From positions 608,001 to 672,000 of the forward strand of contig CH464491.1 in NCBI GenBank assembly GCA_000002445.1: DNA of 64,000 nucleotides. The letters run 5' to 3'. Within the stretch, counting starts at the first letter, position 1; the number at the start of each line of letters is the position of its first letter. A program made the translations under genes and the position numbers. Source of the DNA: Trypanosoma brucei. Its lineage: Eukaryota. Below are positions 26,101 to 48,010 of this stretch, one piece after another. Under the pieces are notes generated by a model. That model was not told the DNA's origin and did not search any database. It saw only the letters and a list, made by a program, of their open reading frames with translations.

Positions 26101-27475
26101 ACCACCACCCGAGAAGGACATGGATGTGCATGGTGATGTTCCACCGCCAACACCACCACCTGAGAAGGACATGGATGTGCATGGTGATGTTCCACCGCCA
26201 ACACCGCCACCCGAGAAGGACATGGATGTGCATGGTGATGTTCCACCGCCAACACCACCACCCGAGAAGGACATGGATGTGCATGGTGATGTTCCACCGC
26301 CAACACCACCACCTGAGAAGGACATGGATGTGCATGGTGATGTTCCACCGCCAACACCACCACCCGAGAAGGACATGGATGTGCATGGTGATGTTCCACC
26401 GCCAACACCACCACCCGAGAAGGACATGGATGTGCATGGTGATGTTCCACCGCCAACACCGCCACCCGAGAAGGACATGGATGTGCATGGTGATGTTCCA
26501 CCGCCAACACCGCCACCCGAGAAGGACATGGATGTGCATGGTGATGTTCCACCGCCAACACCGCCACCTGAGAAGGACATGGATGTGCATGGTGATGTTC
26601 CACCGCCAACACCACCACCCGAGAAGGACATGGATGTGCATGGTGATGTTCCACCGCCAACACCGTCACCTGAGAAGGACATGGATGTGCATGGTGATGT
26701 TCCACCGCCAACACCGCCACCTGAGAAGGACATGGATGTGCATGGTGATGTTCCGATGGTTGTGGAGGGTAGTGCAAATGTTGATTCTTCATGTGTGCTT
26801 GTTTGTAGTGGAGGTGCTGAAGAAGTTGTTGATGTCCCTGCAGATCTTGAATCGGTTGATGATGAAAATGTTTATGTTTCCGAATTGCAATCCACTGCTG
26901 TTTTGAATGAAGATGTTACATTGTTGTTAGATGAATGTGACAGAATGGTGGTAGGTCGTGACGAGGGTGCCTCTGGTAGATCTGTTGGCGTGCCAACACT
27001 ACAGGCTTCTAATTTAATAGAATTTCCACCGCCATCAAATGGAAAAGAACCTGCTACCTCGAGGGAAGAGGCAGCTGATCTTCTTTTAACACGTGAGAGG
27101 GAACTGCTCGATGCGATGGAACATGAGAATGAGTGTATTGACATGCTTGTGCAGTCTCTTAGAAGGATGGATAATGCATCTGAGAAGGATAGGGCTGCTT
27201 ATTGTGCCGAAGTGGACAGGTTGCAGCAGCAGTTTAAGCTGCTGGATGAAGCGGAGGAGGAGCTGACGTTGCTGCTGGCGCGTGCCACCCAAAGGTTTAA
27301 TTTATGTCGTGAGGAACGTCGGAAATCACAGTTGGAGCTCTTGGAGGCGCGCGCGCGGAAGGAAACGTACAGTTTGGCACTTGCTATGATGGACCGGGAG
27401 TTGCGTACACAGTTTGATAACGATGGCAACCGTCGCCCAGGAGGGATGTTCCTATCCAAAAGTGACTCTTCATAA
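23165..27475 (+). CDS. large tandem-repeat protein
   Basis: This is one continuous ORF, with the first ATG at 23165 (track start 23156 is TTG). Protein architecture: a unique ~400-aa N-terminal region, then 47 tandem 17-aa repeats (PPPTPPPEKDMDVHGDV), then a ~240-aa C-terminal region with coiled-coil character (LLTRERELLDAMEHENE...LQQQFKLLDEAEEELTLL). The repeat DNA is nearly invariant, with only synonymous changes plus one Pro-to-Ser change. No stop codon interrupts the array. Confidence 0.85.
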   Translation: MTTWLFNVSVLHLSASFSEPRLASFAAEGQLACRMFFNGKPLDLTFQPASEMIGGGKPQSTFLYRIQSLTVADLLNMLRQRSVRFYIVPVKRNSDPLGKEIRAACRATTNIMCIAERGGGLLELPLTSAASKEEGNSGIVGTLSVCIAFDQLAEVELRLKEFYVSGLENGIYGLHCRLAPFKEGVVSKLTRALSGTARWTDAEVPMAKYRGVLRNLKKHQFAIAVYLIDGNNNERPVASFEVDLAIKNTSASCKEITIPFSMSDGKTSTTVNGALQLSGLPTFEDEMQKILRAGPACVDTEDEKKEKNKFSDPEGAKSSEAESTTEIDTENSSMGRHLPEYSQGSSPPIVSRTSTPTRASPRDISSPPSEDQDAEDCRFSFPSKNSISALWHSEADLESPTPPPEKDMDVHGDVPPPTPPPEKDMDVHGDVPPPTPPPEKDMDVHGDVPPPTPPPEKDMDVHGDVPPPTPPPEKDMDVHGDVPPPTPPPEKDMDVHGDVPPPTPPPEKDMDVHGDVPPPTPPPEKDMDVHGDVPPPTPPPEKDMDVHGDVPPPTPPPEKDMDVHGDVPPPTPPPEKDMDVHGDVPPPTPPPEKDMDVHGDVPPPTPPPEKDMDVHGDVPPPTPPPEKDMDVHGDVPPPTPPPEKDMDVHGDVPPPTPPPEKDMDVHGDVPPPTPPPEKDMDVHGDVPPPTPPPEKDMDVHGDVPPPTPPPEKDMDVHGDVPPPTPPPEKDMDVHGDVPPPTPPPEKDMDVHGDVPPPTPPPEKDMDVHGDVPPPTPPPEKDMDVHGDVPPPTPPPEKDMDVHGDVPPPTPPPEKDMDVHGDVPPPTPPPEKDMDVHGDVPPPTPPPEKDMDVHGDVPPPTPPPEKDMDVHGDVPPPTPPPEKDMDVHGDVPPPTPPPEKDMDVHGDVPPPTPPPEKDMDVHGDVPPPTPPPEKDMDVHGDVPPPTPPPEKDMDVHGDVPPPTPPPEKDMDVHGDVPPPTPPPEKDMDVHGDVPPPTPPPEKDMDVHGDVPPPTPPPEKDMDVHGDVPPPTPPPEKDMDVHGDVPPPTPPPEKDMDVHGDVPPPTPPPEKDMDVHGDVPPPTPPPEKDMDVHGDVPPPTPPPEKDMDVHGDVPPPTPPPEKDMDVHGDVPPPTPPPEKDMDVHGDVPPPTPPPEKDMDVHGDVPPPTPSPEKDMDVHGDVPPPTPPPEKDMDVHGDVPMVVEGSANVDSSCVLVCSGGAEEVVDVPADLESVDDENVYVSELQSTAVLNEDVTLLLDECDRMVVGRDEGASGRSVGVPTLQASNLIEFPPPSNGKEPATSREEAADLLLTRERELLDAMEHENECIDMLVQSLRRMDNASEKDRAAYCAEVDRLQQQFKLLDEAEEELTLLLARATQRFNLCREERRKSQLELLEARARKETYSLALAMMDRELRTQFDNDGNRRPGGMFLSKSDSS
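24356..26755 (+). repeat. 51-bp tandem repeat array, 47 copies, in frame within the CDS 23165..27475
   Basis: The unit is ccaacacc[g/a]ccacc[t/c]gagaaggacatggatgtgcatggtgatgttccaccg, repeated head-to-tail. The only variable positions are two third-codon positions (ccg/cca and cct/ccc) and a single c>t change (Pro to Ser) in unit 46. The periodicity leaves three + frames and three - frames open, which explains the 800-960-aa 'ORFs' in every other frame. Confidence 0.97.
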
Positions 27476-28030: not shown

Positions 28031-29389
28031 ATGGCCGACCACGAGTTGTCCGAGTCCGAGAAGGCAATTGAACGATATAAGGTGAAGAAGCTCATCCAAA
28101 TGCTCGAGAGTGCTCGCGGTATGGGCACAAGCGTCATAAGCATTTACATGACCCCAAAGGAGCAGATATCTGGCATGGTAACCAAACTGAACAACGAGTA
28201 CGGAACGGCCTCCAACATCAAATCGCACACCAACAAGCTTAGCGTTCAAAGTGCCATCACTGCCTCTCTCGGTAGGTTAAAGCAGTACAACCGACTCCCA
28301 CCTAATGGGCTCCTCCTCTACTGCGGTACCGTCCTCACGGCAGAAAACAAGGAGAAAAAACTTACACTTGATATTGAGCCTTTCAAGCCGGTTAGCCGGA
28401 GCCTATACCTCTGTGACAACAAGTTCCACACCGAAGAGCTCCACCGCATGCTGGAGTCTGATGAGAAGTTTGGATTCATTGTTGTAGACGGTAGTGGCAC
28501 AACCTATGCAACTCTTTGTGGGAGTGTGAAGGAGAAGCTGAGTTCATTCACCGTAGAGCTACCGAAAAAGCACGGAAGAGGTGGTCAAAGTAAAAATCGT
28601 TTCGCACGTATTCGTATGGAAAGGCGCCACAACTACCTTCGCAAGGTGGCCGAAGGCGCCACGCAATTATTTATAACAAACGACCGTCCAAATATCGTGG
28701 GGCTCGTGCTTGCCGGTTCTGCTGAGTTCAAGGAAGTGTTGTACCAGTCAGATCTGTTTGATCCGCGCCTGAAAGCGATCGTGGTGAAGGTTGTAGATGT
28801 TGCCCACCCGGGCGATGTGGGCCTCAATCAGGCCATAGATCTCGCGGCGGATGCGCTGTCTGGAGTTAAGCTCGTACAAGAGAAGAAACTACTTCAGGGA
28901 TTCTTCGATCAGATCGCTTGTGATACGCAGCTGTATTGCTTTGGTGTTCAGGATACCCTGAAGTGCTTGGAGGCGGGCGCGGTGGAAACACTTATTGTGT
29001 ATGAAGACCTTAACATTTACCGCTACACTGTTGTGAAGAATCGCGGAGCAGACGATGAGGAAACCTTCGTCCATGTTATGTCGGAGGAAGAAGCAAAGAG
29101 GTCTAATATACACATGCAGGAGTCCGGGAAGACACGCAATGAAATTGAACAGGAAGACTTTGTCGACTGGCTCGCGACAAACTACCGCAAGTTTGGTTGC
29201 GCCTTGGAGTTGATCACGAATCGCAGCCAGGAGGGAACTCAATTCGTCCGCGGTTTTGGAGGGATTGGAGGTGTGTTGCGGTATAAACTTGATATTATTG
29301 CTTTGCGTGATGTGGAGAAAAAAGAAGATGATGAGGAGCGCATTGCAGCGAACAATGAGGAGTTTGACTTCGACGACGACTTTATGTAA
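28031..29389 (+). CDS. ERF1: eukaryotic peptide chain release factor subunit 1 (eRF1)
   Basis: ATG at 28031. The NIKS stop-codon recognition motif is present (GTASNIKSHTNKL). The GGQ peptidyl-tRNA hydrolysis motif is present (KHGRGGQSKNRFARIR). Overall it is collinear with eRF1 domains 1-3, with an acidic C-terminal tail (EEFDFDDDFM). Confidence 0.95.
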   Translation: MADHELSESEKAIERYKVKKLIQMLESARGMGTSVISIYMTPKEQISGMVTKLNNEYGTASNIKSHTNKLSVQSAITASLGRLKQYNRLPPNGLLLYCGTVLTAENKEKKLTLDIEPFKPVSRSLYLCDNKFHTEELHRMLESDEKFGFIVVDGSGTTYATLCGSVKEKLSSFTVELPKKHGRGGQSKNRFARIRMERRHNYLRKVAEGATQLFITNDRPNIVGLVLAGSAEFKEVLYQSDLFDPRLKAIVVKVVDVAHPGDVGLNQAIDLAADALSGVKLVQEKKLLQGFFDQIACDTQLYCFGVQDTLKCLEAGAVETLIVYEDLNIYRYTVVKNRGADDEETFVHVMSEEEAKRSNIHMQESGKTRNEIEQEDFVDWLATNYRKFGCALELITNRSQEGTQFVRGFGGIGGVLRYKLDIIALRDVEKKEDDEERIAANNEEFDFDDDFM

Positions 29390-31450
29390 GACCACTTCCG
29401 TTTGGTATCGTTTTCGTGTCCGTGGACGTTGGGGCGCTCGTGCACGTTGTGTGTAATGAAGTAAATTTGAAATAGATGAGTGGTTAGCGTCATAAAGCTG
29501 TGGGTAGCAAGTAATTTCGTGTCAGACGCGTCATTTGTTTTGTCGAGTCGTTTACGGTGTGCCATCAATCGGAGTTTTTTTTTCCTTAAAAAAACTGTAG
29601 TTGATTCTTTAACGAAGGGTGCCGTGCTCCCTTACGGTGATGCGTTCATACGCTGTGCAAGAGTAAAAGGAGGGGGGTGGGGTAAGAAAGTTTGATTATT
29701 ATTATTACTACTACTTGTGGAAGGCTTTGAGTGAACTGTGGAGAAGTGTCGTGCCTAACGAGTCGGTGTTTACCCCAACGGCATGATGGCGGTGCTTCGG
29801 TAAAACTCGTACCATACGATGAGGGGAAGCAACGAGAGGCGCATAAAATGTTGAAGAAATGACTGGGTAATTAAGTATCTAATTAAAGAATACTAAATAT
29901 CTTTTGATACCGCTAGGAGTGTAACAACACGAAACCTGTGTATGTATTTGTGGTGTCGCTTTAGATACGAGTGAAGTGAAGGGAAGAAGAGGAGACCGAT
30001 GGCGTGCCGGCGGCAGTAAATGGTTGGAAAGAAACAAAAGGTGCGTTTTTGTGTCTTTTTCGGAATTGATAGTAATGAGAGGAAGTCGGGGATCTGTGGC
30101 TCTTATGATTTTTCGTTCACATGGTTCTGCAGTAACGTGTTTCAACAGTACTTTTTTTTTTCCTTGTGTTTGGAGTCTCCTCACCACTGTTTTTTCCTGC
30201 GACTTCCTCTCATTGCCCCTCCCTTTACTGTTGAGACTTTGTGGTGCGGTTGCTAGAGAGGGTTAAAGGGGAGAGGAAAAAAAAGAGAGAATAGGGATGA
30301 AGGTACTACGGGCGTTTACGTGCGACTGCACGAACGAGTCGTGGTTTGTTTCCCTAAAACATTTACGCTTCTATACGCATTAGCACGCACTCAAATATAT
30401 AGTCAAGACAACATTGGTTACTTTTTTGAGTACTGTTGCCTAACCGCTAATATTTCCCTATTTTGGACTTCTCGTCGTTGCACTCCCACACATATCTAAC
30501 TGAAATCACATCTACACACTCATCTGTCGTAGTTCCTCTTTTTTATTTTCCTTTATATGTTCTGGGATGTGGGGTTCTGTCCCTTTTCCCTGAGTTTTGT
30601 CCCGGGGGGGGGGGGGCCGAGGCGCTTTACGACCCTTGCGTTGATCTTAATTCCCCTCTCCATTATACTTCTTCGTCTTTCCATTTTCTTTTTTTGCTTC
30701 ACCGGAGGCGATCCCCCTCAAGAGGAGTTTCATTCTCTTTTGACTATATTTATTCATATAAAGGAAGTATCCGTATTTGTACTGGATGGTGTCACGTACA
30801 GCTCTTAACATGATCCAGTTGGAAGATCACTAGCGGTTGGGGAAGAGAGGGGGGGGGGCGGAGGGACATTGCCACAATTTGAAATTGTCGGGGTTGTTCT
30901 CTGTTCTCTCTTTCCCGTTTCTGTTGTATTTAATGATCATGTCCTTAGGAAAGTAGCGAATGGAGGTATTTATTGCGAATTCGTTTGGTTCGTCACGACT
31001 TAACGTGCGGTAACCGATGAATGTGGAAGAGTACAGCTTTTAATCATCGACACGTGATGCTAGGGTTGGTTGTTTGGTGTACGGGGACTGCATACAGCGT
31101 TGAAGGTGATACGAATTAAAAACTTCGTGTGGGAGCCAAGGATGCGGTGTTTGGGGATTCGTTTTTTTATTTCTTTCGTTTACGTTGTCAACTTTTGGTT
31201 TGACGCGCCGGGGTGTTCGAATACGTTAAGCGCTCCGCACCCTTCGTGCCTTTGTTGTCAGGTTCGTATCGGTAGCGTTGCTCTGTGTTGAAGTGTGTTC
31301 ATTATTATTTTTTTTTGGGGGTGGCTATTAGCTAACGGACACGCAGATATAAATGAATATATATATGTACTCATGTACCATTGTATTCATCACCAGACAC
31401 ATTTGAAGACTAACTGCTCTTTTCATGTATTTTTTCTCCTATTAAAGAAT

Positions 31451-34400
31451 ATGTATAAGCAGCACACGAACTTTGCGGCGGCAAACACTCCCCTCTTCAC
31501 GCAGCTGTTCGGTTCTGTTGCTGCAGACACCTCGAAACCACAGCAGCGAGTCGAAAAGGACACTTCAGAAGAATTTAATCGGCGTAATTCGGCGGATCCG
31601 GCTCAGCTTTCCCGTGGAAGAATTGTGGAGATGCAGTCGTCTGGAAGTAAACGTTACCAAACTGCTGATAGTGCTACTCAAACCACTCTGCCATGTAGCG
31701 AGGTTGTTGGATCAAATACCGAGGAAACAACCCAGAACTTCTTACGAGCCTGCCAACCTCAGGAAGTTGGACCGCCGCCGTGTGCTGAATTCAAACCGAT
31801 GGATGTTGAAGGTGGGGCTGATATCTCCGTGGAAGATGATGTACCTGCATGGAAGAAACCCACAATTCCCTTCCGGAAGATGATGCAAGAGTTGGAAAAG
31901 CGCTTCCACGAGCAAATGGATGTGCATCGCGGGCTTAAGTCTACGATGGAGCGCCTTGATGTTCTCCGAAGTGAAATTTCTCTCTACCAAGCTGAACAAC
32001 GCACAGCAAAGTTGGCCGAAGCATTGCACCAGAAAAATGCTTATTCGATTGAAAGAGCTGCGCAACTCTCTGCTTCCGCTTATGCTTATGCGGAATCTCT
32101 CTCTGCATTTTCTCCAAAGCCGCCTCCTGCAATCACGACTGCTCCGCCCCAGCAACAAACGAAGGCGGCTGCTTCCGAGACCACCCCGTTTCTCAAAAGC
32201 ATTTTGGAGTCTTATCAGAAGGAGCGCGAGGGCAAGACACGTGGGAAGAATGGAGAAGCCACTGATGTTCCCGTGAAGAAGGCGCTGTCTGTGGATATTA
32301 TTCGTCAGCCGGAAGAACCGCTTCCGTACAAGCGCGTATATTATGTGCCTGTTGTGGAGGAGAAACCTAATAGTGTGAGCGCCGTCAGGGAAGATGGTGT
32401 AAATGATGTTAACTCAACAGTGAGAGAAGGGAATGGAGCAGGAGCTTCCACTTCTTCCGTTAGTGTCGTTGCCGCAGGCCCTTCAGCGGCATCAAATTCC
32501 GAAATTTCTATTGAAAGCGGCGGTGTATCAGCGAACACTTCTGTGGGGAGCTCTGAAGTGGGCACGAATGTGATTTCTCAGAGCTTGGACACGGATCAGG
32601 TAAGTGAAACCAGATCCCTATCCGCTGCATCCTCCAGAAATTCACCTCCCTCTCCAACATCTTCGACACCATCCGTTAATGAGCTTTCCGCCTCAACGGG
32701 GCATTCATCCATCGCCGACGAGACTGGAAGCAGCATTAAAAGCTCTCACTCGACTAATATCCTCGCCACGCGAAATGAAGGCAAAGCGGAACCGCTGGTG
32801 ACGACACTTAAAGAATTTTATCGTGCCTGTGGAAATGCCAACCGTCTCATGCAGGCCCTACTTGGAAGAAATATTCGCCTGACAGCGGTAACGCCGAAAA
32901 AGAAAGGAGACGCATATAAAGAGAGGGAAGAGCACTCTGCCTCGTCCGAAAGTAGCGATAGCCGAAATGTGAAACAGAGTGAAAAACCCGAGTGGTTGGC
33001 TGCTTTGAAGCGCGATGTGAGAGATATTCGGAAGCTCCGACGGTTTATTGATCGCATGAAGCGGAATATTAAGTCGATTGACTGTCATCACCGTGCTCAG
33101 GAAGTGCGGCGAAAACTGTTTGTGAAAGCACAGCGGCTCGCAAAAGCACAACGACGGGTTCGGAACAACATGGATGCGGTGTCGGACGTTATGGATGAAA
33201 TCGCGGACATAATTAGAAGTGATGCCAGTGGTGCTGGTGATGAAGACGAGGTGGTGGATGATATTTCTGTAGCATTTTCTGCGGAGGGTAGCGACAGCAT
33301 CATGGATGAAGTCGATGATGAATTTAACTTCGGCGGAACGACGCGAAGTGGAGGCGGCATCTCAGATGAGGTGGATGATGAGGTGGTGGACGAGTTGCAG
33401 CAGAGTCGCTTAGGGAGTGCTGATGATGATGTCGTAACCGATGTTGTCAGTGAACTCAGTTGGGCAAAGGAGGAGAGTGATTTTGCCGAGGCGCTCGCGG
33501 AAGTGAGTGACATCAATGACTTGTTGGATGACGAAGTTCCTCTTCCTGATGAGGAATCTCTGATGGACGATGTTGTTGATGAGGATCTACCACCTGCTTC
33601 CTCTATAGAAACAGAAGGGAGTATTGAAGACCGTGTCGCGGCCGCTGGTGTTGATGATGTCGCTGATAACGTTATCAGTGGCGCCGTCGACGGCATTGTT
33701 GATGATGTTGAGGATGCTGCCTCGTCCGCCGTGATCACTGAGGAGTCGAGTGCTGATAATGCTGATGTGTCCAGCGTTATGCCGGCCTCTTCCGCTTCTA
33801 CCCGATCGTCAGAAGACACTGAGGATAGCGTGAAGCGTATGAGAGATATGAGTATGAGCAGAATTTATGATGATACAGAATCGGCGGAGAGTGCTCTTAA
33901 TGAACTAGAACGCGCTATGAGGATACCGACGAAGCAGCGCTCTCTGTCAAGTTCTGGGGCTCACCCGGTAAACTTCTTGGGGCTGGACATACAAAATGCG
34001 ATGAGTGCCGAAACCCTTGTAACCGAGGAATTAAAGGACGGATACGTGGTCAGGTCCGACTCTCATACATGGGAAAGCACTCTCCATAATGACGTTGCTT
34101 TCCCCCCTGCTCCCGCCGATATTACCCTCAGTGCTGATATAAACACGAACCCACCCACTCTGCGAAGTCTTTCCACGCCGACGAGCGTTGCTTCAGTGGC
34201 GGGTCTACCAGTGAAGGCTCCAGGTTGCGCTAATTACGAAACCGATGATATCGTTGCTCAGCTTAACTGGAAGGAACGGCAGCTGCTTCTATTTGAGAAG
34301 ATTCACCCAAAAACGATGTGGACTCAGGCAGAGACTGAGGACACACCAGCGGATGCGGAGGGGCCCGTCGAGGGTCGAGCGGGGTACCACTGGGGAATGT

Positions 34401-34516
34401 TAGAGACGCTCCTTCAGTATCGCTTTGCCCTTAATGCCGTCGACGAAGCTCATGATGACATTACTGATTACGTTGATGATTTCGAAGACATTATTTTTGA
34501 TGATTACGATGCCTAG
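31451..34516 (+). CDS. hypothetical acidic Ser/Asp/Val-rich protein (~1021 aa)
   Basis: The track ORF starts at GTG 31295. In-frame ATGs are at 31373 and 31451. I prefer 31451 because a second polypyrimidine tract (ttttcatgtattttttctcctattaaag) with an AG sits immediately upstream, and because residues 1-52 of the long version are a hydrophobic low-complexity stretch. The C-terminal third carries degenerate D/E-V-D-D repeats (DEVDDE, VDDVAD, DDITDYVDDFEDIIFDDYDA). No domain recognised. Confidence 0.65.
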   Translation: MYKQHTNFAAANTPLFTQLFGSVAADTSKPQQRVEKDTSEEFNRRNSADPAQLSRGRIVEMQSSGSKRYQTADSATQTTLPCSEVVGSNTEETTQNFLRACQPQEVGPPPCAEFKPMDVEGGADISVEDDVPAWKKPTIPFRKMMQELEKRFHEQMDVHRGLKSTMERLDVLRSEISLYQAEQRTAKLAEALHQKNAYSIERAAQLSASAYAYAESLSAFSPKPPPAITTAPPQQQTKAAASETTPFLKSILESYQKEREGKTRGKNGEATDVPVKKALSVDIIRQPEEPLPYKRVYYVPVVEEKPNSVSAVREDGVNDVNSTVREGNGAGASTSSVSVVAAGPSAASNSEISIESGGVSANTSVGSSEVGTNVISQSLDTDQVSETRSLSAASSRNSPPSPTSSTPSVNELSASTGHSSIADETGSSIKSSHSTNILATRNEGKAEPLVTTLKEFYRACGNANRLMQALLGRNIRLTAVTPKKKGDAYKEREEHSASSESSDSRNVKQSEKPEWLAALKRDVRDIRKLRRFIDRMKRNIKSIDCHHRAQEVRRKLFVKAQRLAKAQRRVRNNMDAVSDVMDEIADIIRSDASGAGDEDEVVDDISVAFSAEGSDSIMDEVDDEFNFGGTTRSGGGISDEVDDEVVDELQQSRLGSADDDVVTDVVSELSWAKEESDFAEALAEVSDINDLLDDEVPLPDEESLMDDVVDEDLPPASSIETEGSIEDRVAAAGVDDVADNVISGAVDGIVDDVEDAASSAVITEESSADNADVSSVMPASSASTRSSEDTEDSVKRMRDMSMSRIYDDTESAESALNELERAMRIPTKQRSLSSSGAHPVNFLGLDIQNAMSAETLVTEELKDGYVVRSDSHTWESTLHNDVAFPPAPADITLSADINTNPPTLRSLSTPTSVASVAGLPVKAPGCANYETDDIVAQLNWKERQLLLFEKIHPKTMWTQAETEDTPADAEGPVEGRAGYHWGMLETLLQYRFALNAVDEAHDDITDYVDDFEDIIFDDYDA

Positions 34517-34888
34517 GAGAAGAGTTCGTCAGGTGCTTCTGAAGGCCTCGCTACCTGAAGGTGCGTTGGGAAGCCGGAACATTATTGAATGCGGAGCGTC
34601 CAGCAGTGTGATGCCACTGTTGTTCTTTTATCGACTCAAAGTGCACTGTTGAGTCCAAACTTGGTGTCGGGTGAGCGTGTGCGTGCACACCTAAGACACA
34701 CCGCTATAGAATTGGAAATACACAAATGTACACGTAGACGCGCGATCTTCACCTACATTATGAATTGCACATCTTTCCATTTGCTACTCATTATTTTATA
34801 ATTATTTCACTTTGCTTTGGCACCATTCAAAGCAAATCCCATACACCTACACACTATAGATGCATATATTAGATGTTTTCATGGACTG

Positions 34889-35070
34889 CCCCGCCAGTAT
34901 CTTCCATTTGTCCCTTCCAGAGGGATATAAGAACCATTTTTTTGTTTTTTTACTTTATATGCTCATGTATTGTGTTTCCACTATAATCCTCGCCACACCA
35001 CTGTTCAGGAATAACCGATTTTGTGTACTGGCGATCCGTTACAACATTTTTTTCCCGTATCTTTTATATT
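34889..35070 (+). promoter_or_regulatory. polypyrimidine-rich region upstream of the strumpellin gene
   Basis: Long CT-rich runs (ccatttgtcccttccag..., tttttttgtttttttactttatatgctc, ttttttcccgtatcttttatattccgtcttttgcc) precede ATG 35294. Confidence 0.35.
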
Positions 35071-35293
35071 CCGTCTTTTGCCGAAGCGATATTTGAAACC
35101 GCTGAGGAGACGAGGTGCCCCCCAAAACCGCTAGCGCGCTTACTTTATTCGGTTGGTACTCCTCGCACTGGGGCATTAAATCTCCTTGATTAAGTTGTGG
35201 TATTACGTGATTGTGGTCGCTACGCAAGAAAAAAAAAACATTTACCGTAGGGTGGGGGGTGGGGGATAAGGGGGCCAATTGTCTCTAGTGTAG

Positions 35294-38200
35294 ATGAGCC
35301 AACAAAAGGGGAAGAAACATCGCTCGGACTTTCTCGATGACGACTGTGGTCAGAGTGCATTGCAGCTCGCAGCACGTGGTAGTGCAATCATCGTGGAGTT
35401 GCTTCGCCTTTCGCAACACATACCACGGGAGTTTGTGCATCCAGAGGAGTCGGAATACGCGGCGATCATAAGTGACTTCTCCTACTTCAAGGCAACAGAG
35501 GCATTCGAGGAGAACATTTCTAAATCTGAGGTGCTACTTCAGAGGGATGAGGTCTTCGGCAATACCCATGTGGAGTTTCTTGACCGCTGCTTCAAGTTGT
35601 TTCGCGGTGTATTTGGTTACGTAGTGGAACTCAACCGATTCGTGGAGGAAATACTCGATGGTATGTACGTCTCACACACTATTGAGTCCATCTTGGCAGA
35701 TATCGATGGCAAGCAAATTCTTTGTGAAATATATCACCTCTACGGAGTTATGCTACTACTGCTTGACCACAGATTTGGTGGGAAAATACGGGAGTATATT
35801 CTCGTTAGTTACATACGCTATAAGGGGACTAGTGAGCCGAACATGATGGATGTGACGAGTTTGTGCCGCACAACCGGGTACCGTTGCGACTCAGCAAATG
35901 GGCTACCGCCGAATTACCCATTATCATACTTCAATCGCGTTCCAGTTGACAAAAAGGTCGTTGGAACCATTATTGGTCGTATTCGATCCGATGACATTTA
36001 TCAGATGTCGTACAACTTTCCGGTGCCCGAGCACCGTAGCGCTGCTTTGTCTTTACAAGGAGCTGTGTTGTACGTGCTTCTTTTTTTCAAACCTGAGATA
36101 CTCCAACATGAGGGGCCCGTTATGCGTGAAATTGTGGACAAACACTTCGCTGATAATTGGATCATTAATTACTACATGGGATTCACCGTGGACCTTATGG
36201 TGGCATGGCGTGAGTTCCCAGCCGCGAGGAATGCCATCAGTGGCACTGTGACTTTGGAAAACATTGGATATTATATGACGCGGCAACGGCAGAGCATGTC
36301 GAGCGTGTACGATTCAATCGAGGAGGTTCTCCGCCAAGGAGTTCTCACCGAGCAGTACGTGTTGGACAATATTCATTCCACATTGCTTCCACTCATTCGC
36401 GAGGCGAATGTTGTGCTGCGTTGGTTTGTGCTACACACACACCGACTTGATGGCCGCAATTTCTATCATGAGAAAAGTAGACAAATTTACGAAATGATTG
36501 CTGGGTGCGTAAGGGACGATGATATCATCATGTTGCTTCTGCGCACAGCTCAGCTAGAGTTTACTCTGCGAGCCATGTTTGCGAACCTGTTGAAGCAGAA
36601 AAGAGCCCGCTGGGAATCCTCCCGACAGGAGGGGGCAATGAAAATGGCCAAATTGTCCACTTTTTTCTCGGGAAAGCACGTTTTGAGTGATGACATGTGC
36701 GACCCGCAGCTGGAGGCGTGGTTTATGGAGATATCGCAAAGAATCGAGGGTTTGGAATATGCTAACAGTACCATTGCCAGCAGGAAGATTCAAAAACTGA
36801 TAAAGGCTTTGGAAAATGTGCAAGAGTTTCATCAGGTTGATAGCAACTTACAGGTGATTCAATTTGTACAAGACACTCGTTTCCTTCTACTCCAAATGAT
36901 ACGTTACATCAATATTGAGAATAAAGTTCTTATTACCATTGCCACTGTTGGGGATGTCTCCTACGCCTGGGAGAGTATGGCATACTACAACAATTATGTA
37001 ATTGCAATGCAGTTGAAGATTAAGCAGAAACCTGATCTTGCAGTGCAGATGCGCGCAGTTTTCATGAAACTGGCGTCGCTGCTCGAGCTGCCATGCAATC
37101 GGATCGATCAAGGAGCGCAGAATGATGCACGCCTTCTAGTAGCCCTTGAAAGCACCTCTGAGTATTACTCTGGGGAGTTGGTGGCCTTTGCTCGACGAGT
37201 TCTGCACATTATCCCTACTTCCATTTTCAGTATTCTCCGACAGGTTATGGACATTCTTACCAACCACCTACATGAGTGCCCAACGAAACTGGCAAGGAAA
37301 GAAATGAAGGGGCAAAGTCAACTGAACGTGCGGAAAGCACTTTCGACTCACACAGCTGACATTGTGAAATACGCAAGCGGCATTTTGGCGATGGAAAGTA
37401 CACTTGTCGGGATTATCCAGGTGGATCCTCATCAGCTTCTTGAAGATGGCATAAGGAAGGAACTTCTTCAACAAATAACGATGGAATTACACAACTCACT
37501 TCTCTTCGACGCGAAAAAACCGCCTTCGGCCGCCTCCTTTAATGAGGGGCTTGCTCGGCTCGCTCAAAAGTTGAACGGCATTCGCGCCTCCTTCGAGTAC
37601 ATTCAGGATTATGTAAATGTACACGGTCTTAGGATTTGGTTGGAAGAGTTCTCACGGATTGTGAACTTTAACGTGGAGATGGAGTGTAATGCGTTTTTAC
37701 AAAAGAAGTTATATCCATGGGAATCACAGTATCAGTCGGAGAGTATTCCCATCCCTTACTTCGAGCCAACACCTGGTCGATCAACATACAGTTTTCTTGG
37801 AGGAATTTCGCAGCATCTCATTGCCATCACTGACCCCTCACACGCCCTTTTCCTCAAGTCATATGGGGCTTGGTTCGAACGCAACTCACTCGAGGAAGTT
37901 GTTGGCTCACGAACCTTTGCTAGCATAGGAGAAGCCATCGGTTCCATGGGGCTCGTTGCACTTGACAGGATGTTGTGTTTCATTATTGCGAAGAACCTAC
38001 AACAATTGCTGAAGACCATTCGGGCCACTTTAGAGCCGTTGGAAGAAACGGTTATGAACCTGGCGGAGGAACTTTGTTCCAGTAGCCATGACCCTAGGAA
38101 GCTTATTGAAATTTACGAAAAACTGATGAAGTTGATCAATAGCAGTGGCGGTGAGGGTAGTGTCCCCCTGGAGACGAAGGAATACAACAATCGCGTTGTG

Positions 38201-38947
38201 ATTAAGGACCACCTGGCCGAGGTGACAAAACTTATGGTGCTCGTTGGAAGGATCCAGATCATGCGTGTGATGATTGCGCACGAGCTCCGTTCGTTTTGTA
38301 AACTTAATAGCGGCTCGCTCTTTGCTGCCTTATCTACGGTTAATGAAGCTCTGCTGACAGACCTGCAGCATCACTATCATAGTCCCGATTCCCATCCGAT
38401 GCCTGGTGAAATTATAAACGCTGTTTCGCCTTTTCTGGACTGTGCTGGTATAAGTGACGCTTTGACGAAAGTGTACGTTACATCCAAACCAATCCCATCG
38501 TTTGTGTTTTACCTGATTGCTCTCACATTACGAAACATACCGCGAATGCGTTACGATGATAAACTCGCCTCCATGGTGCCGTCAGAACTCAAGTACCTGC
38601 TGGATCCTGAGGCCCTCGTCATTGCTCTTGCTTTACTCCTGAAACAATTTCATTCAGATCAGCTGGTTCTGTTTTTGAACCACCTTTCCCGCGTGGTATG
38701 TGCTGTCGTCCGAAACTTTTACGAAGATTCGCAGCAACAACAACAACAGAAACAAAAGCAAAAGAAGAAGGATAGTGGTCCACAACAAAGGCTGGATGAT
38801 ATCCTGCCCGAAGACGCCGAGAAAATAGTGCACGTAATTCACGGAGTGGCAGAAGCCACAGGGGCCCCCACCTTAGATCTTCACCGCATGTTTCCGGCCC
38901 CGCTCTCTGGAGATTTTCGGTTGCCCGTTACTAAAGGAAAAGGCTGA
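35294..38947 (+). CDS. WASHC5: strumpellin homologue (WASH complex subunit 5)
   Basis: At 1217 aa it is the size of strumpellin. Several blocks match my memory of metazoan strumpellin: GSAIIVELLRLSQHIPREF (cf. GNAIIAELLRLSEFIP); DFSYFK; DGKQILCEIYHLYGVMLLLLDHRFGGKIREYILVSYIRYKG (cf. [39 protein letters not shown]); IGRIRSDDIYQMSYNFPVPEHRSAAL (cf. IGRLRSDDIYNQ...PLPEHRSTAL); DNWIINYYMGFTVDL; LQVIQFVQDTRFLLLQMIRYINI. Confidence 0.8.
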   Translation: MSQQKGKKHRSDFLDDDCGQSALQLAARGSAIIVELLRLSQHIPREFVHPEESEYAAIISDFSYFKATEAFEENISKSEVLLQRDEVFGNTHVEFLDRCFKLFRGVFGYVVELNRFVEEILDGMYVSHTIESILADIDGKQILCEIYHLYGVMLLLLDHRFGGKIREYILVSYIRYKGTSEPNMMDVTSLCRTTGYRCDSANGLPPNYPLSYFNRVPVDKKVVGTIIGRIRSDDIYQMSYNFPVPEHRSAALSLQGAVLYVLLFFKPEILQHEGPVMREIVDKHFADNWIINYYMGFTVDLMVAWREFPAARNAISGTVTLENIGYYMTRQRQSMSSVYDSIEEVLRQGVLTEQYVLDNIHSTLLPLIREANVVLRWFVLHTHRLDGRNFYHEKSRQIYEMIAGCVRDDDIIMLLLRTAQLEFTLRAMFANLLKQKRARWESSRQEGAMKMAKLSTFFSGKHVLSDDMCDPQLEAWFMEISQRIEGLEYANSTIASRKIQKLIKALENVQEFHQVDSNLQVIQFVQDTRFLLLQMIRYINIENKVLITIATVGDVSYAWESMAYYNNYVIAMQLKIKQKPDLAVQMRAVFMKLASLLELPCNRIDQGAQNDARLLVALESTSEYYSGELVAFARRVLHIIPTSIFSILRQVMDILTNHLHECPTKLARKEMKGQSQLNVRKALSTHTADIVKYASGILAMESTLVGIIQVDPHQLLEDGIRKELLQQITMELHNSLLFDAKKPPSAASFNEGLARLAQKLNGIRASFEYIQDYVNVHGLRIWLEEFSRIVNFNVEMECNAFLQKKLYPWESQYQSESIPIPYFEPTPGRSTYSFLGGISQHLIAITDPSHALFLKSYGAWFERNSLEEVVGSRTFASIGEAIGSMGLVALDRMLCFIIAKNLQQLLKTIRATLEPLEETVMNLAEELCSSSHDPRKLIEIYEKLMKLINSSGGEGSVPLETKEYNNRVVIKDHLAEVTKLMVLVGRIQIMRVMIAHELRSFCKLNSGSLFAALSTVNEALLTDLQHHYHSPDSHPMPGEIINAVSPFLDCAGISDALTKVYVTSKPIPSFVFYLIALTLRNIPRMRYDDKLASMVPSELKYLLDPEALVIALALLLKQFHSDQLVLFLNHLSRVVCAVVRNFYEDSQQQQQQKQKQKKKDSGPQQRLDDILPEDAEKIVHVIHGVAEATGAPTLDLHRMFPAPLSGDFRLPVTKGKG

Positions 38948-39558: not shown

Positions 39559-41076
39559 ATGAATGTCCTTGAAGATCTTGAAGCTCAGGTAGCAACAGCA
39601 AGACTTAGACTTCATGAGCTGGAGGAGCGGCTGCACGAAGAGCGGAACCGAGTCAACTCGTGTGGAGCTGATGTGCTCACCTCTAGTGGCCCTTCTTCCA
39701 TTGACAATAGCGGAGGCTCTACTGCAGGAGAGACTCCGTCTTTCGTATCGTCGTCTGGTTCTTTGACGAAATCTGACGTTGAGAGGTTTTCCCGACAGAT
39801 TGTGCTGGAAGATATAGGCGCTAAGGGAATGGATCGCATTCGGCGAGGACGTGTTTTACTGGTCGGTGCTGGTGGTTTGGGTAGTACAGCTGCTCTCTAC
39901 CTTGTCGCTGCTGGTGTTGGTGAACTTTGCATTGTTGATTTTGACACTGTAGAGCACAGCAACCTTCATCGGCAGATAATACACAACACAATGCGTGTTG
40001 GTATGTCGAAAGCCGAGAGTGCGGTTCAGTCATGTTTAGCCCTCAACCCTCGAGCCAAGATTCGAGCCATCACGGCCCCCTTCACACCCGCAAACGCAGA
40101 AGAACTTGTGCGTGGTTGTGACGTTGTGGTGGATGGTTCTGACAATGTGGCGACACGTTACTTAATTAACGATGCAGCGGCGCGTTATCGTCGACCATTG
40201 GTGAGTGGCAGTGCGTTGCGATGGGAGGGGCAATTAAGTGTTTACTGCGGCGGCCTAAGCTGCCCCTGCTATCGTTGCCTCTTTCCAACGCCTCCACCAG
40301 CATCGGCTGTGGGAAGCTGTAATGACACTGGAGTGGTTGGCCCCGTGCCCGGTTGTATTGGGTGTTTGCAAGCCACAGAGGCTCTTAAGTTGTTGGCGGG
40401 TGCAGGTGATGTCCTCGAGGGTCGGCTGCTTTTGCTTGACGCCTTGCGGATGCAACTCCGCGTCGTTCGGTTGCGGGGGCGCCAGAAAGACTGCCCGGCT
40501 TGTGGGGAGGCTGCGAAACTTAACGTTGGCAAATCGCTTCAGCAACTTGCCGCGGAGCGACCAGAATATGTTATGCCATCGTGTGCCTCAGGAGCGCTGC
40601 GGAGCGCAAATATGTTGCCTGCTGAGGCCAACGTGGCTCCTTCTGTGTATTTTTCCGTGTTGCAGAAGCTTTTAAGGGGTGAAAGGATGTCGTGGATGAC
40701 CCTTGACGTACGGCCCAAGGAGCAGTACGACATGGCCCATCTGCCTCACAGTGTCTCTCTCCCATTAAAGCAACTGGAGATGTGGAAGCGTGACGGTGTG
40801 CTTCAAAACGAGTGGGAGAAATTTGTCAACAGCGTACCGTGCGCCAGCAGAGGGCCGATGGATGTCTACGTCATTTGCCGTCGTGGTATTTCATCCGTAA
40901 AAGCTATGCAGGTGCTTCTTCCGCTTCAGGAGTGGTGCCCTAAAAGTTGTGGAACGGATGTAGACGGCAAAGCAGCGATACATCAAAATCCCGGCAAACG
41001 GTTTCGCTTCATTAATGTGGATGGGGGGCTGAATCGCTACCACCGTGAAGTAGACAGAAACTTCCCCTTTTACTAA
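39559..41076 (+). CDS. MOCS3: MOCS3/Uba4-type adenylyltransferase and sulfurtransferase (URM1/MOCS2A activating enzyme, ThiF/MoeB fold plus rhodanese domain)
   Basis: The ThiF/MoeB nucleotide-binding region is present (FSRQIVLEDIGAKGMDRIRRGRVLLVGAGGLGSTAALYLVAAGVGELCIVDFDTVEHSNLHRQIIH). Paired CxxC zinc motifs are present (CPCYRC ... CPAC). A C-terminal rhodanese-like domain carries an active-site Cys loop (VYVICRRGISS). Confidence 0.85.
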   Translation: MNVLEDLEAQVATARLRLHELEERLHEERNRVNSCGADVLTSSGPSSIDNSGGSTAGETPSFVSSSGSLTKSDVERFSRQIVLEDIGAKGMDRIRRGRVLLVGAGGLGSTAALYLVAAGVGELCIVDFDTVEHSNLHRQIIHNTMRVGMSKAESAVQSCLALNPRAKIRAITAPFTPANAEELVRGCDVVVDGSDNVATRYLINDAAARYRRPLVSGSALRWEGQLSVYCGGLSCPCYRCLFPTPPPASAVGSCNDTGVVGPVPGCIGCLQATEALKLLAGAGDVLEGRLLLLDALRMQLRVVRLRGRQKDCPACGEAAKLNVGKSLQQLAAERPEYVMPSCASGALRSANMLPAEANVAPSVYFSVLQKLLRGERMSWMTLDVRPKEQYDMAHLPHSVSLPLKQLEMWKRDGVLQNEWEKFVNSVPCASRGPMDVYVICRRGISSVKAMQVLLPLQEWCPKSCGTDVDGKAAIHQNPGKRFRFINVDGGLNRYHREVDRNFPFY

Positions 41077-41537: not shown

Positions 41538-43124
41538 ATGAGCCGTCCGTATACCAAAGGAGGTGGCCCCAACCGAGCCGACAGCCGAAGGCGACGGAAA
41601 GGTGACTACGATCGTGATGTCCTCACCGATCGCGGTGGACATAATAGCAGTTGGAATGCTAAACCTGATAGAAGTCGGCGAGGCAGTCGGGGTGGTTCCG
41701 GTCCGCCGGGAAAAGGGACTGGCGGTAGTGATAATCAAGTCCCGCAGTCAACAATGATGACAACTCTGTTGGACCTTCTCTTTCAGAAGTCTTCCAGTGT
41801 CATCTTCAACCGGGAGTCTGGCATGTTAAATCTTTCAAACTTCAGTCAGTCTCAGGATCTTACTGATGTTCGAAAGAGTGTGGACTTTAACAACGTCACA
41901 TTCTGCCGGAGCCTTGTGAGTGTCATCAAGAGTCACATGGGGTCGATGCTACGGGCTGTTGCTGTCAACGACAATAAGATAACCAAATTGTCTGTTTTCT
42001 TGTCGGCGTTGGTGGAGGCTGACCTTCACATTGGGATCACAGCGTTATCGGCCACCGGGAACACCATTGACGACCTCTCCTTTATTGGACCCCTGAAACG
42101 TTTTGTTAACCTTGGTGAATTAGTTTTAAAGGAGAACCCCGTAACGAGACGGGAGGATTACAATTCAAGTGTGATTCAAAAGGTCAAGTCACTCATGATG
42201 CTTGACGACAAGGTTATTAACCGCGCACCGTTGCGCCTCCCCAACCCAATACCATCAAGCCTTTCGCAACTTCAGTTTCAGGTTTTATATTTCCTTGAGG
42301 CTGACGTTTTCTCCGCTGCGGCGGAAGGGAAATGGGATACCCTGACGGGGGTCTATGCTAAAAATGCCCTCTTTAGTGTTAGTCGTTCAGAGGAACCCAT
42401 TGCGTGCCGCATCCCATTTGATGCGAAGCACAAATCAGACACACTAAACCCAACCCAGCGCAAGGTAATGACAGACGACTTCGTTTTTTTGCGTAAGAAT
42501 GTGCCATGGCGGAATCTTCACGTAGAAATTCATTCTTTACGTTCCATCGCTTGCGGGCAAACGAAGGCTGTGAAAGCCATCAATATCCTCGGAGGGGGTG
42601 AGAGAAAGTTTTTTTCCGTATCGCATGAACTCAATGGTAATGCCAATGTTGTGTTCCTATCGGACAACATGGCGGTACCAACATGTGTCCTAACAATTCA
42701 TGGAAGGTTGTTTTGGCACTGGTCACCAATAGATGGTGGCGAAAAGATATTTGCGCGCGATGATGCCCCTTTTGTGAGTTGTTTTTTCCACCGCACCATG
42801 TCCTTAACGTTGGACCCAAACGGGACGACATGGTCGGTGCACAATGATATGATGTTTCTTCGCCCTGACCGACTCCTCCGGCAGGAAAGTGGTGAAAAGG
42901 CCCTTCCTATGTTCTTTGCGAATGATCCCATGCGAATTGAGGAAATGCGGCGTCGGTACCTTCCACAAGCAAAAACTGATGTGATGAAAACCATTGTGGA
43001 AGCCGTAAGCAGCGATGCCGACGTTGTAGGTTTTATTCAGAATTGTCTTGCGAAACTGCCACCGGATCAACTGGAAATCGCCTTGTCGGCAAGTGATGTC
43101 ATGGCAAACTTACTTGGAGGTTAA
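41538..43124 (+). CDS. MEX67b: NXF/Mex67-family nuclear mRNA export factor paralogue lacking the CCCH finger (Mex67b-like)
   Basis: It is collinear with the ORF at 52345 from the LRR region onwards. Aligned blocks include MLNLSNFSQSQDLTDV versus VLNLTQFKEIPDLTDV, GELVLKENPVTRREDY versus REIVLRDNPIANRSDY, and KSLMMLD versus KKLMPSLIGLD. The N-terminus is basic and RG-rich with no C3H motif. The LRR is followed by an NTF2-like region. Confidence 0.7.
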   Translation: MSRPYTKGGGPNRADSRRRRKGDYDRDVLTDRGGHNSSWNAKPDRSRRGSRGGSGPPGKGTGGSDNQVPQSTMMTTLLDLLFQKSSSVIFNRESGMLNLSNFSQSQDLTDVRKSVDFNNVTFCRSLVSVIKSHMGSMLRAVAVNDNKITKLSVFLSALVEADLHIGITALSATGNTIDDLSFIGPLKRFVNLGELVLKENPVTRREDYNSSVIQKVKSLMMLDDKVINRAPLRLPNPIPSSLSQLQFQVLYFLEADVFSAAAEGKWDTLTGVYAKNALFSVSRSEEPIACRIPFDAKHKSDTLNPTQRKVMTDDFVFLRKNVPWRNLHVEIHSLRSIACGQTKAVKAINILGGGERKFFSVSHELNGNANVVFLSDNMAVPTCVLTIHGRLFWHWSPIDGGEKIFARDDAPFVSCFFHRTMSLTLDPNGTTWSVHNDMMFLRPDRLLRQESGEKALPMFFANDPMRIEEMRRRYLPQAKTDVMKTIVEAVSSDADVVGFIQNCLAKLPPDQLEIALSASDVMANLLGG

Positions 43125-45833: not shown

Positions 45834-47302
45834 GTATTTGTATGTGCTTGTGTGCGTTTATGCCTGGGGGGGGGGGCGCTGTGTTTGCTTTAATTTATAT
45901 TTAATCGCACTAATGAGACAACTCACCTCAGGAAAGCTTGTGCCAACTCTGTTACGTGTGGTAAGACACAACAAAAAAAAGTTTCGTTTCAATATCAAAG
46001 ATAATAAAATAAAATAAAATACAAAAAAAAAGAGAACGATGTAGTTGAAACAAAATCACCAAAAAAAAAATATGTCTGGTCGTTTGTGGGTTTGAGGCAA
46101 GTTATCTCGCTTCTCTCCTTTTCCTCTCTTTTTGGTTTGTCGTTCGCTTATTTCTTCCTTTCGAGAAGGATGGAGGAGAACATTCTTTCACTTAATTATC
46201 CCTCTTTATTTAATTCATTTGCTTCTTCTGTTGACATGGTGTGGTGCGGTGCTTGAGGATGCAACTAATTTATTTATTTATTTTTTAAGTGAGCCTCGCA
46301 CCGGCTGTAATAATGTGAAAAAAAAACACTTTCTCACACCAGTGCGCGCACGAAGAAGCTGAAGCAAACATTATCGCTTGCATTCGTCGGTCATTTTGTG
46401 TGGGTGAAAAGGATGACGGGTGAGAGAAGGGAAAAAAGAAAGGAAAAGAAAGAAGTAAAAGAAAAGAGAGGCGTGTGTGTGTGAGAAAAGGAGAGTTGAA
46501 GAAAGGAGGAGCGGGGAAAAGACATAACATAACAAGACAAAACAAAATAAAAACAAAACAGAAATGAGAATCCGGACGCGGTGACTTCAGAGATTCCGTC
46601 GGTCTATGATTTATTTTTCTCTTTGGGCGATCAGGCGACTGTTGCGTGTGTGGGAGCGCAAACGTATTGCCTCCTTCCAAGTGCAGTTACTCACGTTATT
46701 AGCGGTCGGTTGTTCTTCCCCCCCTTTTTTGGTACTTGTGGGGTTACAATAGAGTTGTTGCTTTCGAACGAAGGAAAGACATGCAAATCTTTTTCAAAAA
46801 AACAAAAGAGAGGAGGAAAATGATGAAATCAACAACATTCCAACAGTAAATGCATTTTAATGAAAATCGAAACCGATGCGTAGTGAAGCGAACTTTTTTT
46901 TTTGTTTTGCTTTATCTTCTTTTTATTTTTAGCTACTAACCAGCGGAGAAGGAACCTTCTTCACCCCTGAAGGTTTGGTTACTTTCTAGGCATCTTTTGT
47001 CCGACGCCCTTCCGAGGCCAATGAATCTACTGAATTGTATACATTTGTAATTATGTATCACCACTGAAGCGTAATCGGTGTGATTTTCTCTATTTTCCAT
47101 TCAACATCTGCTTCATCATATTTATTACATGCACTCTTTCTTTTTTTCTTTTTTTTCCATTGTGGTGTTTTTTTTTTTTCAACTCTTTACAAGCTCACAA
47201 AGAAATAGACGTCGAGACAGGCAGGCATAAGTATATATATATATATATATATTACCTTTTATTTTCTTTTAGTTGTACTCCTCATATTTAGCTTTGGTTG
47301 TG

Positions 47303-48010
47303 ATGTATGCTTCGCATAAAAAGGATATTAACCGCCACAAAAGTTTCCACCCACTGACGTTTCAAAACCTCAGCCGGGTGGAGCGTGGCCTCGAAAAGGA
47401 GGAAGAAAAGAAAAAAGCGAAGGAGCAACGCAATGCTGAACTTCTTCATGATCAGGAACAGCGTCGCTACGATGATCTCGTTATTTCCGCCTCCGGTGAT
47501 TCCATAGCCGCACGTGTTGCGAAGTTTAGACAAGTGGAAAATGTTTTTGCGGCAGAGGAGGATAAGCCCGCATTGCAGCCGGAGGCGGTTGCCGTGATGG
47601 GGCAGAAAACCAGTGCACTCACATTCCAAAAAGATCCATTGGAAGCGAAAAAATTAACGCAAAAACGTCAACGTGATGATGTTACCACGAAAAATGAGAA
47701 AGGCGGTAGCGAGGGGCAGAGTTTTGGCGGGGCTGGTAGAAAGGAAGAGGAGAGAAAAGTGAGTGGGAGTTTAGTGACGGGTTTCATAACAAAATCTGAT
47801 GCGGCTCAGTTGCGAAAAGAACTTGACAAACTTCAAAAAGAACGGCACGACCCCCTGCGGAGAGTTGAGCAGTTTCAGAATCGCACGGTTGCGGCTGAGG
47901 CCAAACGGCGGGCTCTTGAGGCACGTGCCGCATCAAACAATAGTCGCGGGGATTTGCAGAAAGATATCATACACAGTCGCCTGCAAGAACTGCTGGATAT
48001 GAAAAAGTGA
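47303..48010 (+). CDS. hypothetical charged coiled-coil protein (~235 aa)
   Basis: The track ORF starts at TTG 47273; the first ATG is at 47303 (MYASHKKD...). The sequence is lysine/glutamate-rich (EKEEEKKKAKEQRNAELLHDQEQRRYDDL, RKELDKLQKERHDPLRRVEQFQNRTVAAEAKRRALEARA). No domain recognised. Confidence 0.5.
   Translation: MYASHKKDINRHKSFHPLTFQNLSRVERGLEKEEEKKKAKEQRNAELLHDQEQRRYDDLVISASGDSIAARVAKFRQVENVFAAEEDKPALQPEAVAVMGQKTSALTFQKDPLEAKKLTQKRQRDDVTTKNEKGGSEGQSFGGAGRKEEERKVSGSLVTGFITKSDAAQLRKELDKLQKERHDPLRRVEQFQNRTVAAEAKRRALEARAASNNSRGDLQKDIIHSRLQELLDMKK

What the first reader, a model, noticed from the sequence alone, without database searches (positions are those of the whole stretch)
35294..38947. 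A full-length strumpellin (WASH complex subunit 5) homologue
Several long blocks match metazoan strumpellin almost residue for residue (see features), over a protein of the right length. WASH-complex components have a patchy distribution in eukaryotes. A well-conserved strumpellin in a kinetoplastid raises the question of whether the other WASH subunits (WASH1, FAM21, SWIP, CCDC53) and the Arp2/3-dependent endosomal sorting machinery are present. Strumpellin may alternatively have been kept for a WASH-independent role.
Basis: partly seen in the sequence, partly recalled or inferred. Interest (0 to 1): 0.5.

Follow-up and report, generated by a model that had tools for sequence, protein, structure and literature searches.

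The report
Trypanosome strumpellin gene, already annotated
The ORF is the genuine, full-length Trypanosoma brucei copy of strumpellin, a scaffold subunit of the WASH actin-regulating complex, but it is already annotated in public databases, WASH itself is known in trypanosomes, and so the finding is correct but ordinary.

Summary
Window 35294..38947 (+) is one intact 1217-codon ORF. It matches Pfam Strumpellin over the whole profile (1396 bits) and aligns end to end with primate WASHC5 (41% identity, E = 0).

It is 100% identical to T. brucei brucei TREU927 XP_828316.1 / UniProt Q386S7, which UniProt already names "WASH complex subunit strumpellin". Orthologues sit in the same gene order in T. 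cruzi and Leishmania, and the gene is under clear purifying selection.

A confident AlphaFold model (pLDDT 86) has only two significant kinds of solved-structure match: Nap1/NCKAP1 and, more weakly, Sra1/CYFIP1. These are the two large subunits of the WAVE regulatory complex, and the match fits the published view that the WASH and WAVE complexes are analogous.

The catalytic subunit WASH1 exists in T. brucei (WAHD domain, 107 bits, deposited protein). The literature reports WASH as the only WASP-family Arp2/3 activator in Euglenozoa, and that Trypanosoma WASH lacks the WH2 motif. I could not search for SWIP, CCDC53 or FAM21, because no kinetoplastid proteome is reachable with these tools.

"Almost residue for residue" overstates the match: the best blocks are 55-62% identical.

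Verdict: real, correctly interpreted, already known, low interest.

The parts
35294..38947 (+). Complete coding sequence of T. brucei strumpellin (WASH complex subunit 5), 1217 aa plus stop codon
   Evidence: ORF list and translation. 100% identical to XP_828316.1 / EAN79204.1 / UniProt Q386S7. The N-terminus MSQQKGKKHRSDFLDDDCGQ is shared by other Trypanosoma orthologues, so the start codon is right.
35381..38698 (+). Region matching the whole Pfam Strumpellin profile (residues 30-1135)
   Evidence: PF10266, 1396.5 bits, profile 1-1084/1084. The AlphaFold model of residues 1-1150 has mean pLDDT 86.3 and pTM 0.76, and is almost all alpha-helical. The best solved-structure match is Nap1/NCKAP1 of the WAVE complex.
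38732..38794 (+). Low-complexity Gln/Lys insertion in the C-terminal tail (about residues 1147-1167, QQQQQQKQKQKKKDSGPQQRL)
   Evidence: It is present only in T. brucei and T. congolense. It is absent from T. vivax, T. cruzi, T. grayi, T. rangeli, T. melophagium, Leishmania, Diplonema and primate sequences in the tail alignment. It lies outside the Pfam match.
34517..35293 (+). Upstream intergenic region with polypyrimidine tracts (about 34940-34960 and 35049-35080), the presumed trans-splice acceptor region and 5' UTR (inferred)
   Evidence: Read directly from the sequence. The assignment rests on established knowledge of kinetoplastid polycistronic transcription and was not tested.

Best explanation
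This is the vertically inherited T. brucei orthologue of strumpellin/WASHC5. Strumpellin is a large all-helical scaffold protein. In the organisms where it has been studied, it forms the five-subunit WASH regulatory complex together with SWIP, FAM21, CCDC53 and WASH1. That complex holds WASH1 in a controlled state and lets it switch on Arp2/3-driven branched actin on endosomes, which helps sort and pinch off recycling carriers. Within the complex, strumpellin most likely plays the part that Nap1/NCKAP1 plays in the WAVE complex: one half of a large helical platform on which the small helical subunits and the activator sit. Shown here: orthology, full length, purifying selection, conserved synteny, a Nap1-like fold, and the presence of WASH1 in the same species group. 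Inferred, not shown: that the trypanosome proteins assemble into the complex, sit on endosomes, and regulate Arp2/3.
Confidence: 0.85

Rival explanations
1. Strumpellin has been kept in trypanosomes for a role that does not involve WASH, for example a proteostasis role linked to VCP/p97, while the rest of the WASH machinery is absent or defunct.
For: Strumpellin is much better conserved with animals (41% over 92% of its length) than TbWASH is (about 25% over about 80%, or 37-40% over about a third). Trypanosoma WASH has lost its WH2 motif. Three of the five subunits were not checked here.
Against: WASH1 is present, with a clear WAHD domain, in the T. brucei group and in four other Trypanosoma species. 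According to Kollmar et al. it retains the CA region, and the deposited T. brucei-group sequence ends in an acidic tail with a terminal tryptophan. The literature reports that WASH and its complex subunits are lost together. The Nap1-like architecture is that of a complex scaffold.
Confidence: 0.08
2. The ORF is a decaying relic or a mis-called gene with no function.
For: NCBI labels it only 'hypothetical protein, conserved'.
Against: It is an uninterrupted ORF of 1217 codons. Its start and end are conserved across Trypanosoma. It is 68-83% identical across Trypanosoma and 41% identical to animals. Synonymous sites have turned over heavily while amino acids were preserved. The predicted fold is confident.
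Confidence: 0.01
3. The gene is host or vector contamination, or a recent horizontal transfer from an animal.
Against: The closest relatives are other trypanosomatids, then Diplonema, and only then animals. The gene lies in a same-strand gene array with typical kinetoplastid neighbours, and that order is shared with T. cruzi and Leishmania. GC content is unremarkable for the window.
Confidence: 0.01

Closest known systems
Human/metazoan strumpellin (WASHC5, KIAA0196; hereditary spastic paraplegia SPG8 protein)
   Same: Same Pfam family matched over the full profile. A collinear alignment runs from about residue 12 to 1139 at 41% identity. Length is similar (1217 versus 1159 aa). The SPG8 positions L619 and V626 are conserved.
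   Different: Human N471, the commonest SPG8 site, is Gln in Trypanosoma and varies outside animals. T. brucei has a Gln/Lys low-complexity insertion in the C-terminal tail. No functional data exist for the trypanosome protein.
Leishmania strumpellin (LmjF.27.1660), used as a species-typing PCR target
   Same: It is the orthologue, in the same gene neighbourhood, and is reported as single-copy and syntenic across Trypanosomatidae (PMC11684767).
   Different: It is only about 43% identical to the T. brucei protein and 60-110 residues longer.
Nap1/NCKAP1 of the WAVE regulatory complex (PDB 3P8C chain B)
   Different: Sequence identity is only 9-13%. There is no Pfam or PDB sequence-level hit. 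TM-scores are low at about 0.32. It belongs to a different complex with different partners and a different location. The relationship is 'works like', not 'member of'.
Trypanosoma WASH (TbWASH), the presumed partner
   Same: It is found in the same species group, and both genes are retained across Trypanosoma.
   Different: It is a different protein encoded elsewhere in the genome. It lacks the WH2 actin-monomer-binding motif found in WASH of other eukaryotes and in more distant relatives of the trypanosome protein.

Membership tests
Strumpellin / WASHC5 (Pfam PF10266) | Match to the family profile above the curated threshold and over its whole length | tested here: met
   1396.5 bits against a cut-off of 25. 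Profile positions 1-1084 of 1084 are matched by residues 30-1135.
Strumpellin / WASHC5 (Pfam PF10266) | Best hits outside the clade are WASHC5, with a collinear end-to-end alignment (the forward half of a reciprocal best hit) | tested here: met
   All 120 listed hits carry PF10266, and the named hits from other groups are WASHC5/strumpellin. The alignment to primate WASHC5 spans 1149 columns at 41% identity.
Strumpellin / WASHC5 (Pfam PF10266) | Reverse half of the reciprocal best hit: human WASHC5 searched against the whole T. brucei proteome returns this gene as its top and only strong hit | not testable with these tools
   No kinetoplastid proteome can be searched here. A paper reports the gene as single-copy in trypanosomatids (PMC11684767).
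Strumpellin / WASHC5 (Pfam PF10266) | Large all-helical scaffold architecture resembling Nap1 of the WAVE complex | tested here: met
WASH regulatory complex (five subunits) | WASH1 (a WAHD-domain protein) is encoded by the same organism | tested here: met
   TbWASH from the supplement of PMC3298513 has Pfam WASH_WAHD at 107 bits. A deposited 576-aa T. brucei-group protein is 100% identical over the 356-residue query.
WASH regulatory complex (five subunits) | SWIP/WASHC4, CCDC53/WASHC3 and FAM21/WASHC2 are encoded by the same organism | not testable with these tools
   None of the large ORFs in the window matches these families, and no T. brucei proteome is searchable. A CCDC53 probe was validated but not run, because kinetoplastid hits would fall below the 120 rows that are listed.
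WASH regulatory complex (five subunits) | Physical assembly with the other subunits, endosomal location, and control of Arp2/3 | not testable with these tools
   This needs experiments. No trypanosome study was found.
Nap1/NCKAP1 family (WAVE complex) | Sequence-level membership of the Nap1 family | tested here: not met
   The only Pfam hit is Strumpellin. There is no PDB sequence hit, even with a 49-sequence profile at E <= 10. Identity in the structural alignments is 9-13%. So it is an architectural analogue or very distant relative, not a member.

The most novel reading that the evidence does not exclude
Trypanosomes may run a stripped-down, non-canonical WASH machine. WASH is reported to be their only WASP-family Arp2/3 activator, yet Trypanosoma WASH has lost the WH2 actin-monomer-binding motif. 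Meanwhile the strumpellin scaffold is unusually well conserved (41% identical to human). The complex might therefore act on Arp2/3 or on endosomal membranes in a different way, and it could be important for the very fast surface-coat recycling through the flagellar pocket. Nothing here excludes this. The WH2 loss itself was already published in 2012.
Probability: 0.2. Interest if true: 0.45.

Novelty: already known. Interest (0 to 1): 0.1.

Why it matters
It matters little as a discovery. The gene is in GenBank and UniProt under this name. Strumpellin in Leishmania and Trypanosoma is mentioned in the literature, and the Leishmania orthologue is even used as a diagnostic PCR target. WASH in kinetoplastids was described in 2012. 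There is some residual value. The WASH complex seems not to have been studied experimentally in trypanosomes, where all endocytosis and recycling pass through one small membrane domain and where WASH is apparently the sole WASP-family Arp2/3 activator and lacks a WH2 motif. A well-conserved scaffold subunit such as this one would be a convenient handle (tagging, pull-down, RNAi) for anyone who wants to define that machinery.

Tried and rejected
(1) PDB sequence searches found nothing relevant, either with the single protein or with a 49-sequence profile. No WASH-complex subunit structure is reachable by sequence, so I used fold comparison instead.

(2) I looked for pan-eukaryotic surveys of WASH-complex subunits. 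Veltman and Insall 2010, Derivery and Gautreau 2010 and McNally et al. 2017 are not held. Two searches failed on syntax. Other searches gave only indirect mentions. The search 'strumpellin + Tb927' gave nothing. The search 'flagellar pocket + WASH' returned only papers dominated by flagellar-pocket content with 1-5 uses of 'wash', and no title or abstract concerned the WASH complex.

(3) The exact-sequence look-up of Kollmar's curated TbWASH failed, because the curated sequence differs from the deposited one at a few residues. The homology search then found it.

(4) I recalled a human CCDC53 sequence from memory and validated it as a family probe (Pfam CCDC53, 178 bits). I ran no further search on it. 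Only the best 120 hits are listed, and animal sequences would fill them, hiding any trypanosome hit.

(5) I asked whether the uncharacterised acidic ORF just upstream (31295..34516) could be a divergent FAM21. It has no Pfam support even at E <= 10 and no LF-acidic repeat pattern. Its conserved blocks are trypanosomatid-specific, and adjacency means little in kinetoplastid gene arrays. I rejected the idea.

Full report
**Observation.** The window carries a single ATG-to-stop ORF at exactly 35294..38947 on the + strand, 1217 codons long. Every ORF of 445 aa or more that is not an overlapping frame of the 24.4-26.8 kb tandem repeat lies on the + strand. That is the pattern of a kinetoplastid polycistronic array. 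GC content around the gene is unremarkable at about 0.47.

**Family assignment.** The translated ORF has one Pfam hit, PF10266 Strumpellin, with E = 0 and 1396.5 bits against a curated cut-off of 25. The match covers profile positions 1-1084 of 1084 and protein residues 30-1135. BLASTP against a primate WASHC5 (P0120) gives one collinear alignment of 1149 columns at 41% identity and 61% positives, E = 0. The match is real, full length, and far beyond chance.

Sliding 30-residue windows reach only 55-62% identity in the best blocks (for example residues 484-550, 687-739 and 758-823). The longest exact runs are QLLEDGIRKEL (11) and SFEYIQDYVN (10).

**Source and prior annotation.** The protein is 100% identical to T. 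brucei brucei TREU927 EAN79204.1 / XP_828316.1 / UniProt Q386S7, on a contig of 5.26 Mb. NCBI calls it 'hypothetical protein, conserved'. UniProt calls it 'WASH complex subunit strumpellin', and the T. equiperdum copy is named 'Hereditary spastic paraplegia protein strumpellin, putative'.

Identity falls in step with phylogenetic distance:
- T. congolense 83%
- T. grayi 71%
- T. vivax 69%
- T. cruzi 68%
- Leishmania about 43%
- Diplonema 42%
- animals about 41%

A 2024 paper uses the Leishmania orthologue (LmjF.27.1660) as a species-typing PCR target. It states that strumpellin occurs in Leishmania and Trypanosoma, and that it is single-copy and syntenic across Trypanosomatidae (PMC11684767). 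The gene is therefore already known.

**Is it a working, vertically inherited gene?**
- The N-terminus and the C-terminal tail are shared with other Trypanosoma orthologues, so the gene model is complete.
- A 49-sequence alignment spanning kinetoplastids, Diplonema, amoebozoans and animals has 82 invariant columns.
- Two of the three classic human SPG8 positions are conserved (L619 as L629, V626 as V636). N471 is Gln in Trypanosoma and varies outside animals.
- Between T. brucei and T. cruzi, 833 of 1185 aligned codons keep the amino acid, and 502 of those use a different codon. Synonymous sites have turned over heavily while the protein was preserved.
- Gene order is conserved. The order unknown acidic protein, strumpellin, ThiF/rhodanese protein, Mex67-like protein is found in T. 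brucei, T. cruzi and L. donovani.

These results rule out the pseudogene, contamination and recent-transfer readings.

**Structure and likely mechanism.** No solved structure matches by sequence, even with a profile. An AlphaFold2 model of residues 1-1150, built on the 49-sequence alignment, is confident (mean pLDDT 86.3, pTM 0.76) and almost entirely helical, with a few hairpins.

Foldseek against the PDB gives seven hits at E <= 0.001, and all are from the WAVE regulatory complex. Five are chain B (Nap1/NCKAP1; 3p8c_B E = 1.3e-11, aligned over the full length). Two are chain A (Sra1/CYFIP1; E = 3.7e-6 and 6e-6). The next hit has E = 0.044.

It agrees with the published view that the WASH and WAVE complexes are built analogously, subunit for subunit (PMC8047104). 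From this I infer that Tb strumpellin is one of the two large platform subunits of a WASH regulatory complex. The assembly, the endosomal location and the control of Arp2/3 are inferred from work in animals and Dictyostelium, not shown here.

*WASH1: present.* Kollmar et al. 2012 state that Euglenozoa contain only a WASH homologue among WASP-family proteins. They also report that kinetoplastid WASH proteins have CA or VCA regions, and that the Trypanosoma proteins lack the WH2 domain (PMC3298513).

I took their curated TbWASH sequence from the supplementary alignment. It has a Pfam WAHD domain at 107 bits against a cut-off of 24.2. A search with its first 356 residues found a deposited 576-aa protein of the T. 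brucei group that is 100% identical over the query. It also found orthologues in T. congolense, T. melophagium, T. cruzi marinkellei and T. vivax.

No WH2 motif is detectable in four Trypanosoma WASH proteins, even at E <= 1. Two more distant relatives from environmental assemblies do have one.

*SWIP, CCDC53 and FAM21: not tested.* None is encoded in the window, and no kinetoplastid proteome can be searched with these tools. The literature statement that the complex subunits are lost together with WASH (Veltman and Insall 2010, cited) makes their presence likely, but I did not test it.

**Comparison with what is known.** By every sequence and structure criterion I could test, this gene is a member of the strumpellin/WASHC5 family. 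It works like Nap1 but is not a member of the Nap1 family. Its only distinctive features are minor. One is a Gln/Lys low-complexity insertion in the C-terminal tail, shared only with T. congolense. The other is a degree of conservation with animals well above that of its partner WASH1.

**Verdict.** The finding is an already annotated, ordinary orthologue, so interest is low. The one thread with some promise is the apparently unstudied, WH2-less WASH machinery of trypanosomes. It lies outside this gene, and its key fact was published in 2012.

Noticed in passing
window 24362..26754 (inside ORF 23156..27475, +): A near-perfect tandem repeat of 51 bp x 46.9 copies (98% matches) encodes a 17-residue repeat within a 1439-aa protein that has no Pfam match. 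It explains the ORFs open in several frames on both strands and the local GC rise to 0.56.
   Followed up: partly
window 31295..34516 (+); L002:6789-9575; L001:5399-9271: An uncharacterised, largely disordered and very acidic protein lies immediately upstream of strumpellin in T. brucei, T. cruzi and L. donovani. It has a few conserved helical blocks (for example MRELERRFQEQMxVHRGL, IRKLRRFIDxMKRN and HWGVLETLLQxRF) and no Pfam match even at E <= 10. I considered it as a FAM21 candidate and rejected that idea.
   Followed up: partly
window 41538..43124 and 52345..54072 (+): Two Mex67/NXF-like genes lie about 9 kb apart. One is a strong match (NTF2_MEX67, 364 bits) and the other a divergent match (51 bits, plus leucine-rich repeats). 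The divergent copy is also next to the ThiF gene in T. cruzi and Leishmania.
   Followed up: no
window 55970..58711 (+): A 913-aa protein combines a phosphoglycerate kinase domain (266 bits) with a weak, sub-threshold match to a cyclic-nucleotide-binding domain (22.2 bits against a cut-off of 27.5).
   Followed up: no
window 19715..22321 (+): A BRO1 + ALIX V-domain protein, an ESCRT-associated endosomal factor, lies 13 kb upstream of strumpellin and is also nearby in Leishmania. Given kinetoplastid gene arrays, this is probably coincidence rather than functional clustering.
   Followed up: no
P0125, P0126, P0128, P0129 versus P0132, P0134 (not in the window): Trypanosoma WASH proteins show no WH2 motif even at E <= 1, whereas more distant relatives from environmental assemblies (about 35% identical) do. 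This agrees with Kollmar et al. 2012. TbWASH ends in a proline-rich stretch followed by DDDDDW.
   Followed up: partly
window 38732..38794 (+): The Gln/Lys-rich insertion in the strumpellin C-terminal tail is found only in T. brucei and T. congolense among the sequences compared.
   Followed up: yes
window 2408..4783, 12193..12894, 28031..29389, 39559..41076, 48573..50483 (+): The housekeeping neighbours are a carnitine/choline acyltransferase, eIF4E, eRF1, a ThiF + rhodanese protein (Uba4/MOCS3-like) and the phenylalanyl-tRNA synthetase beta chain. ORFs at 977..2314, 9575..10300, 47273..48010 and 60016..60672 have no Pfam match.
   Followed up: no
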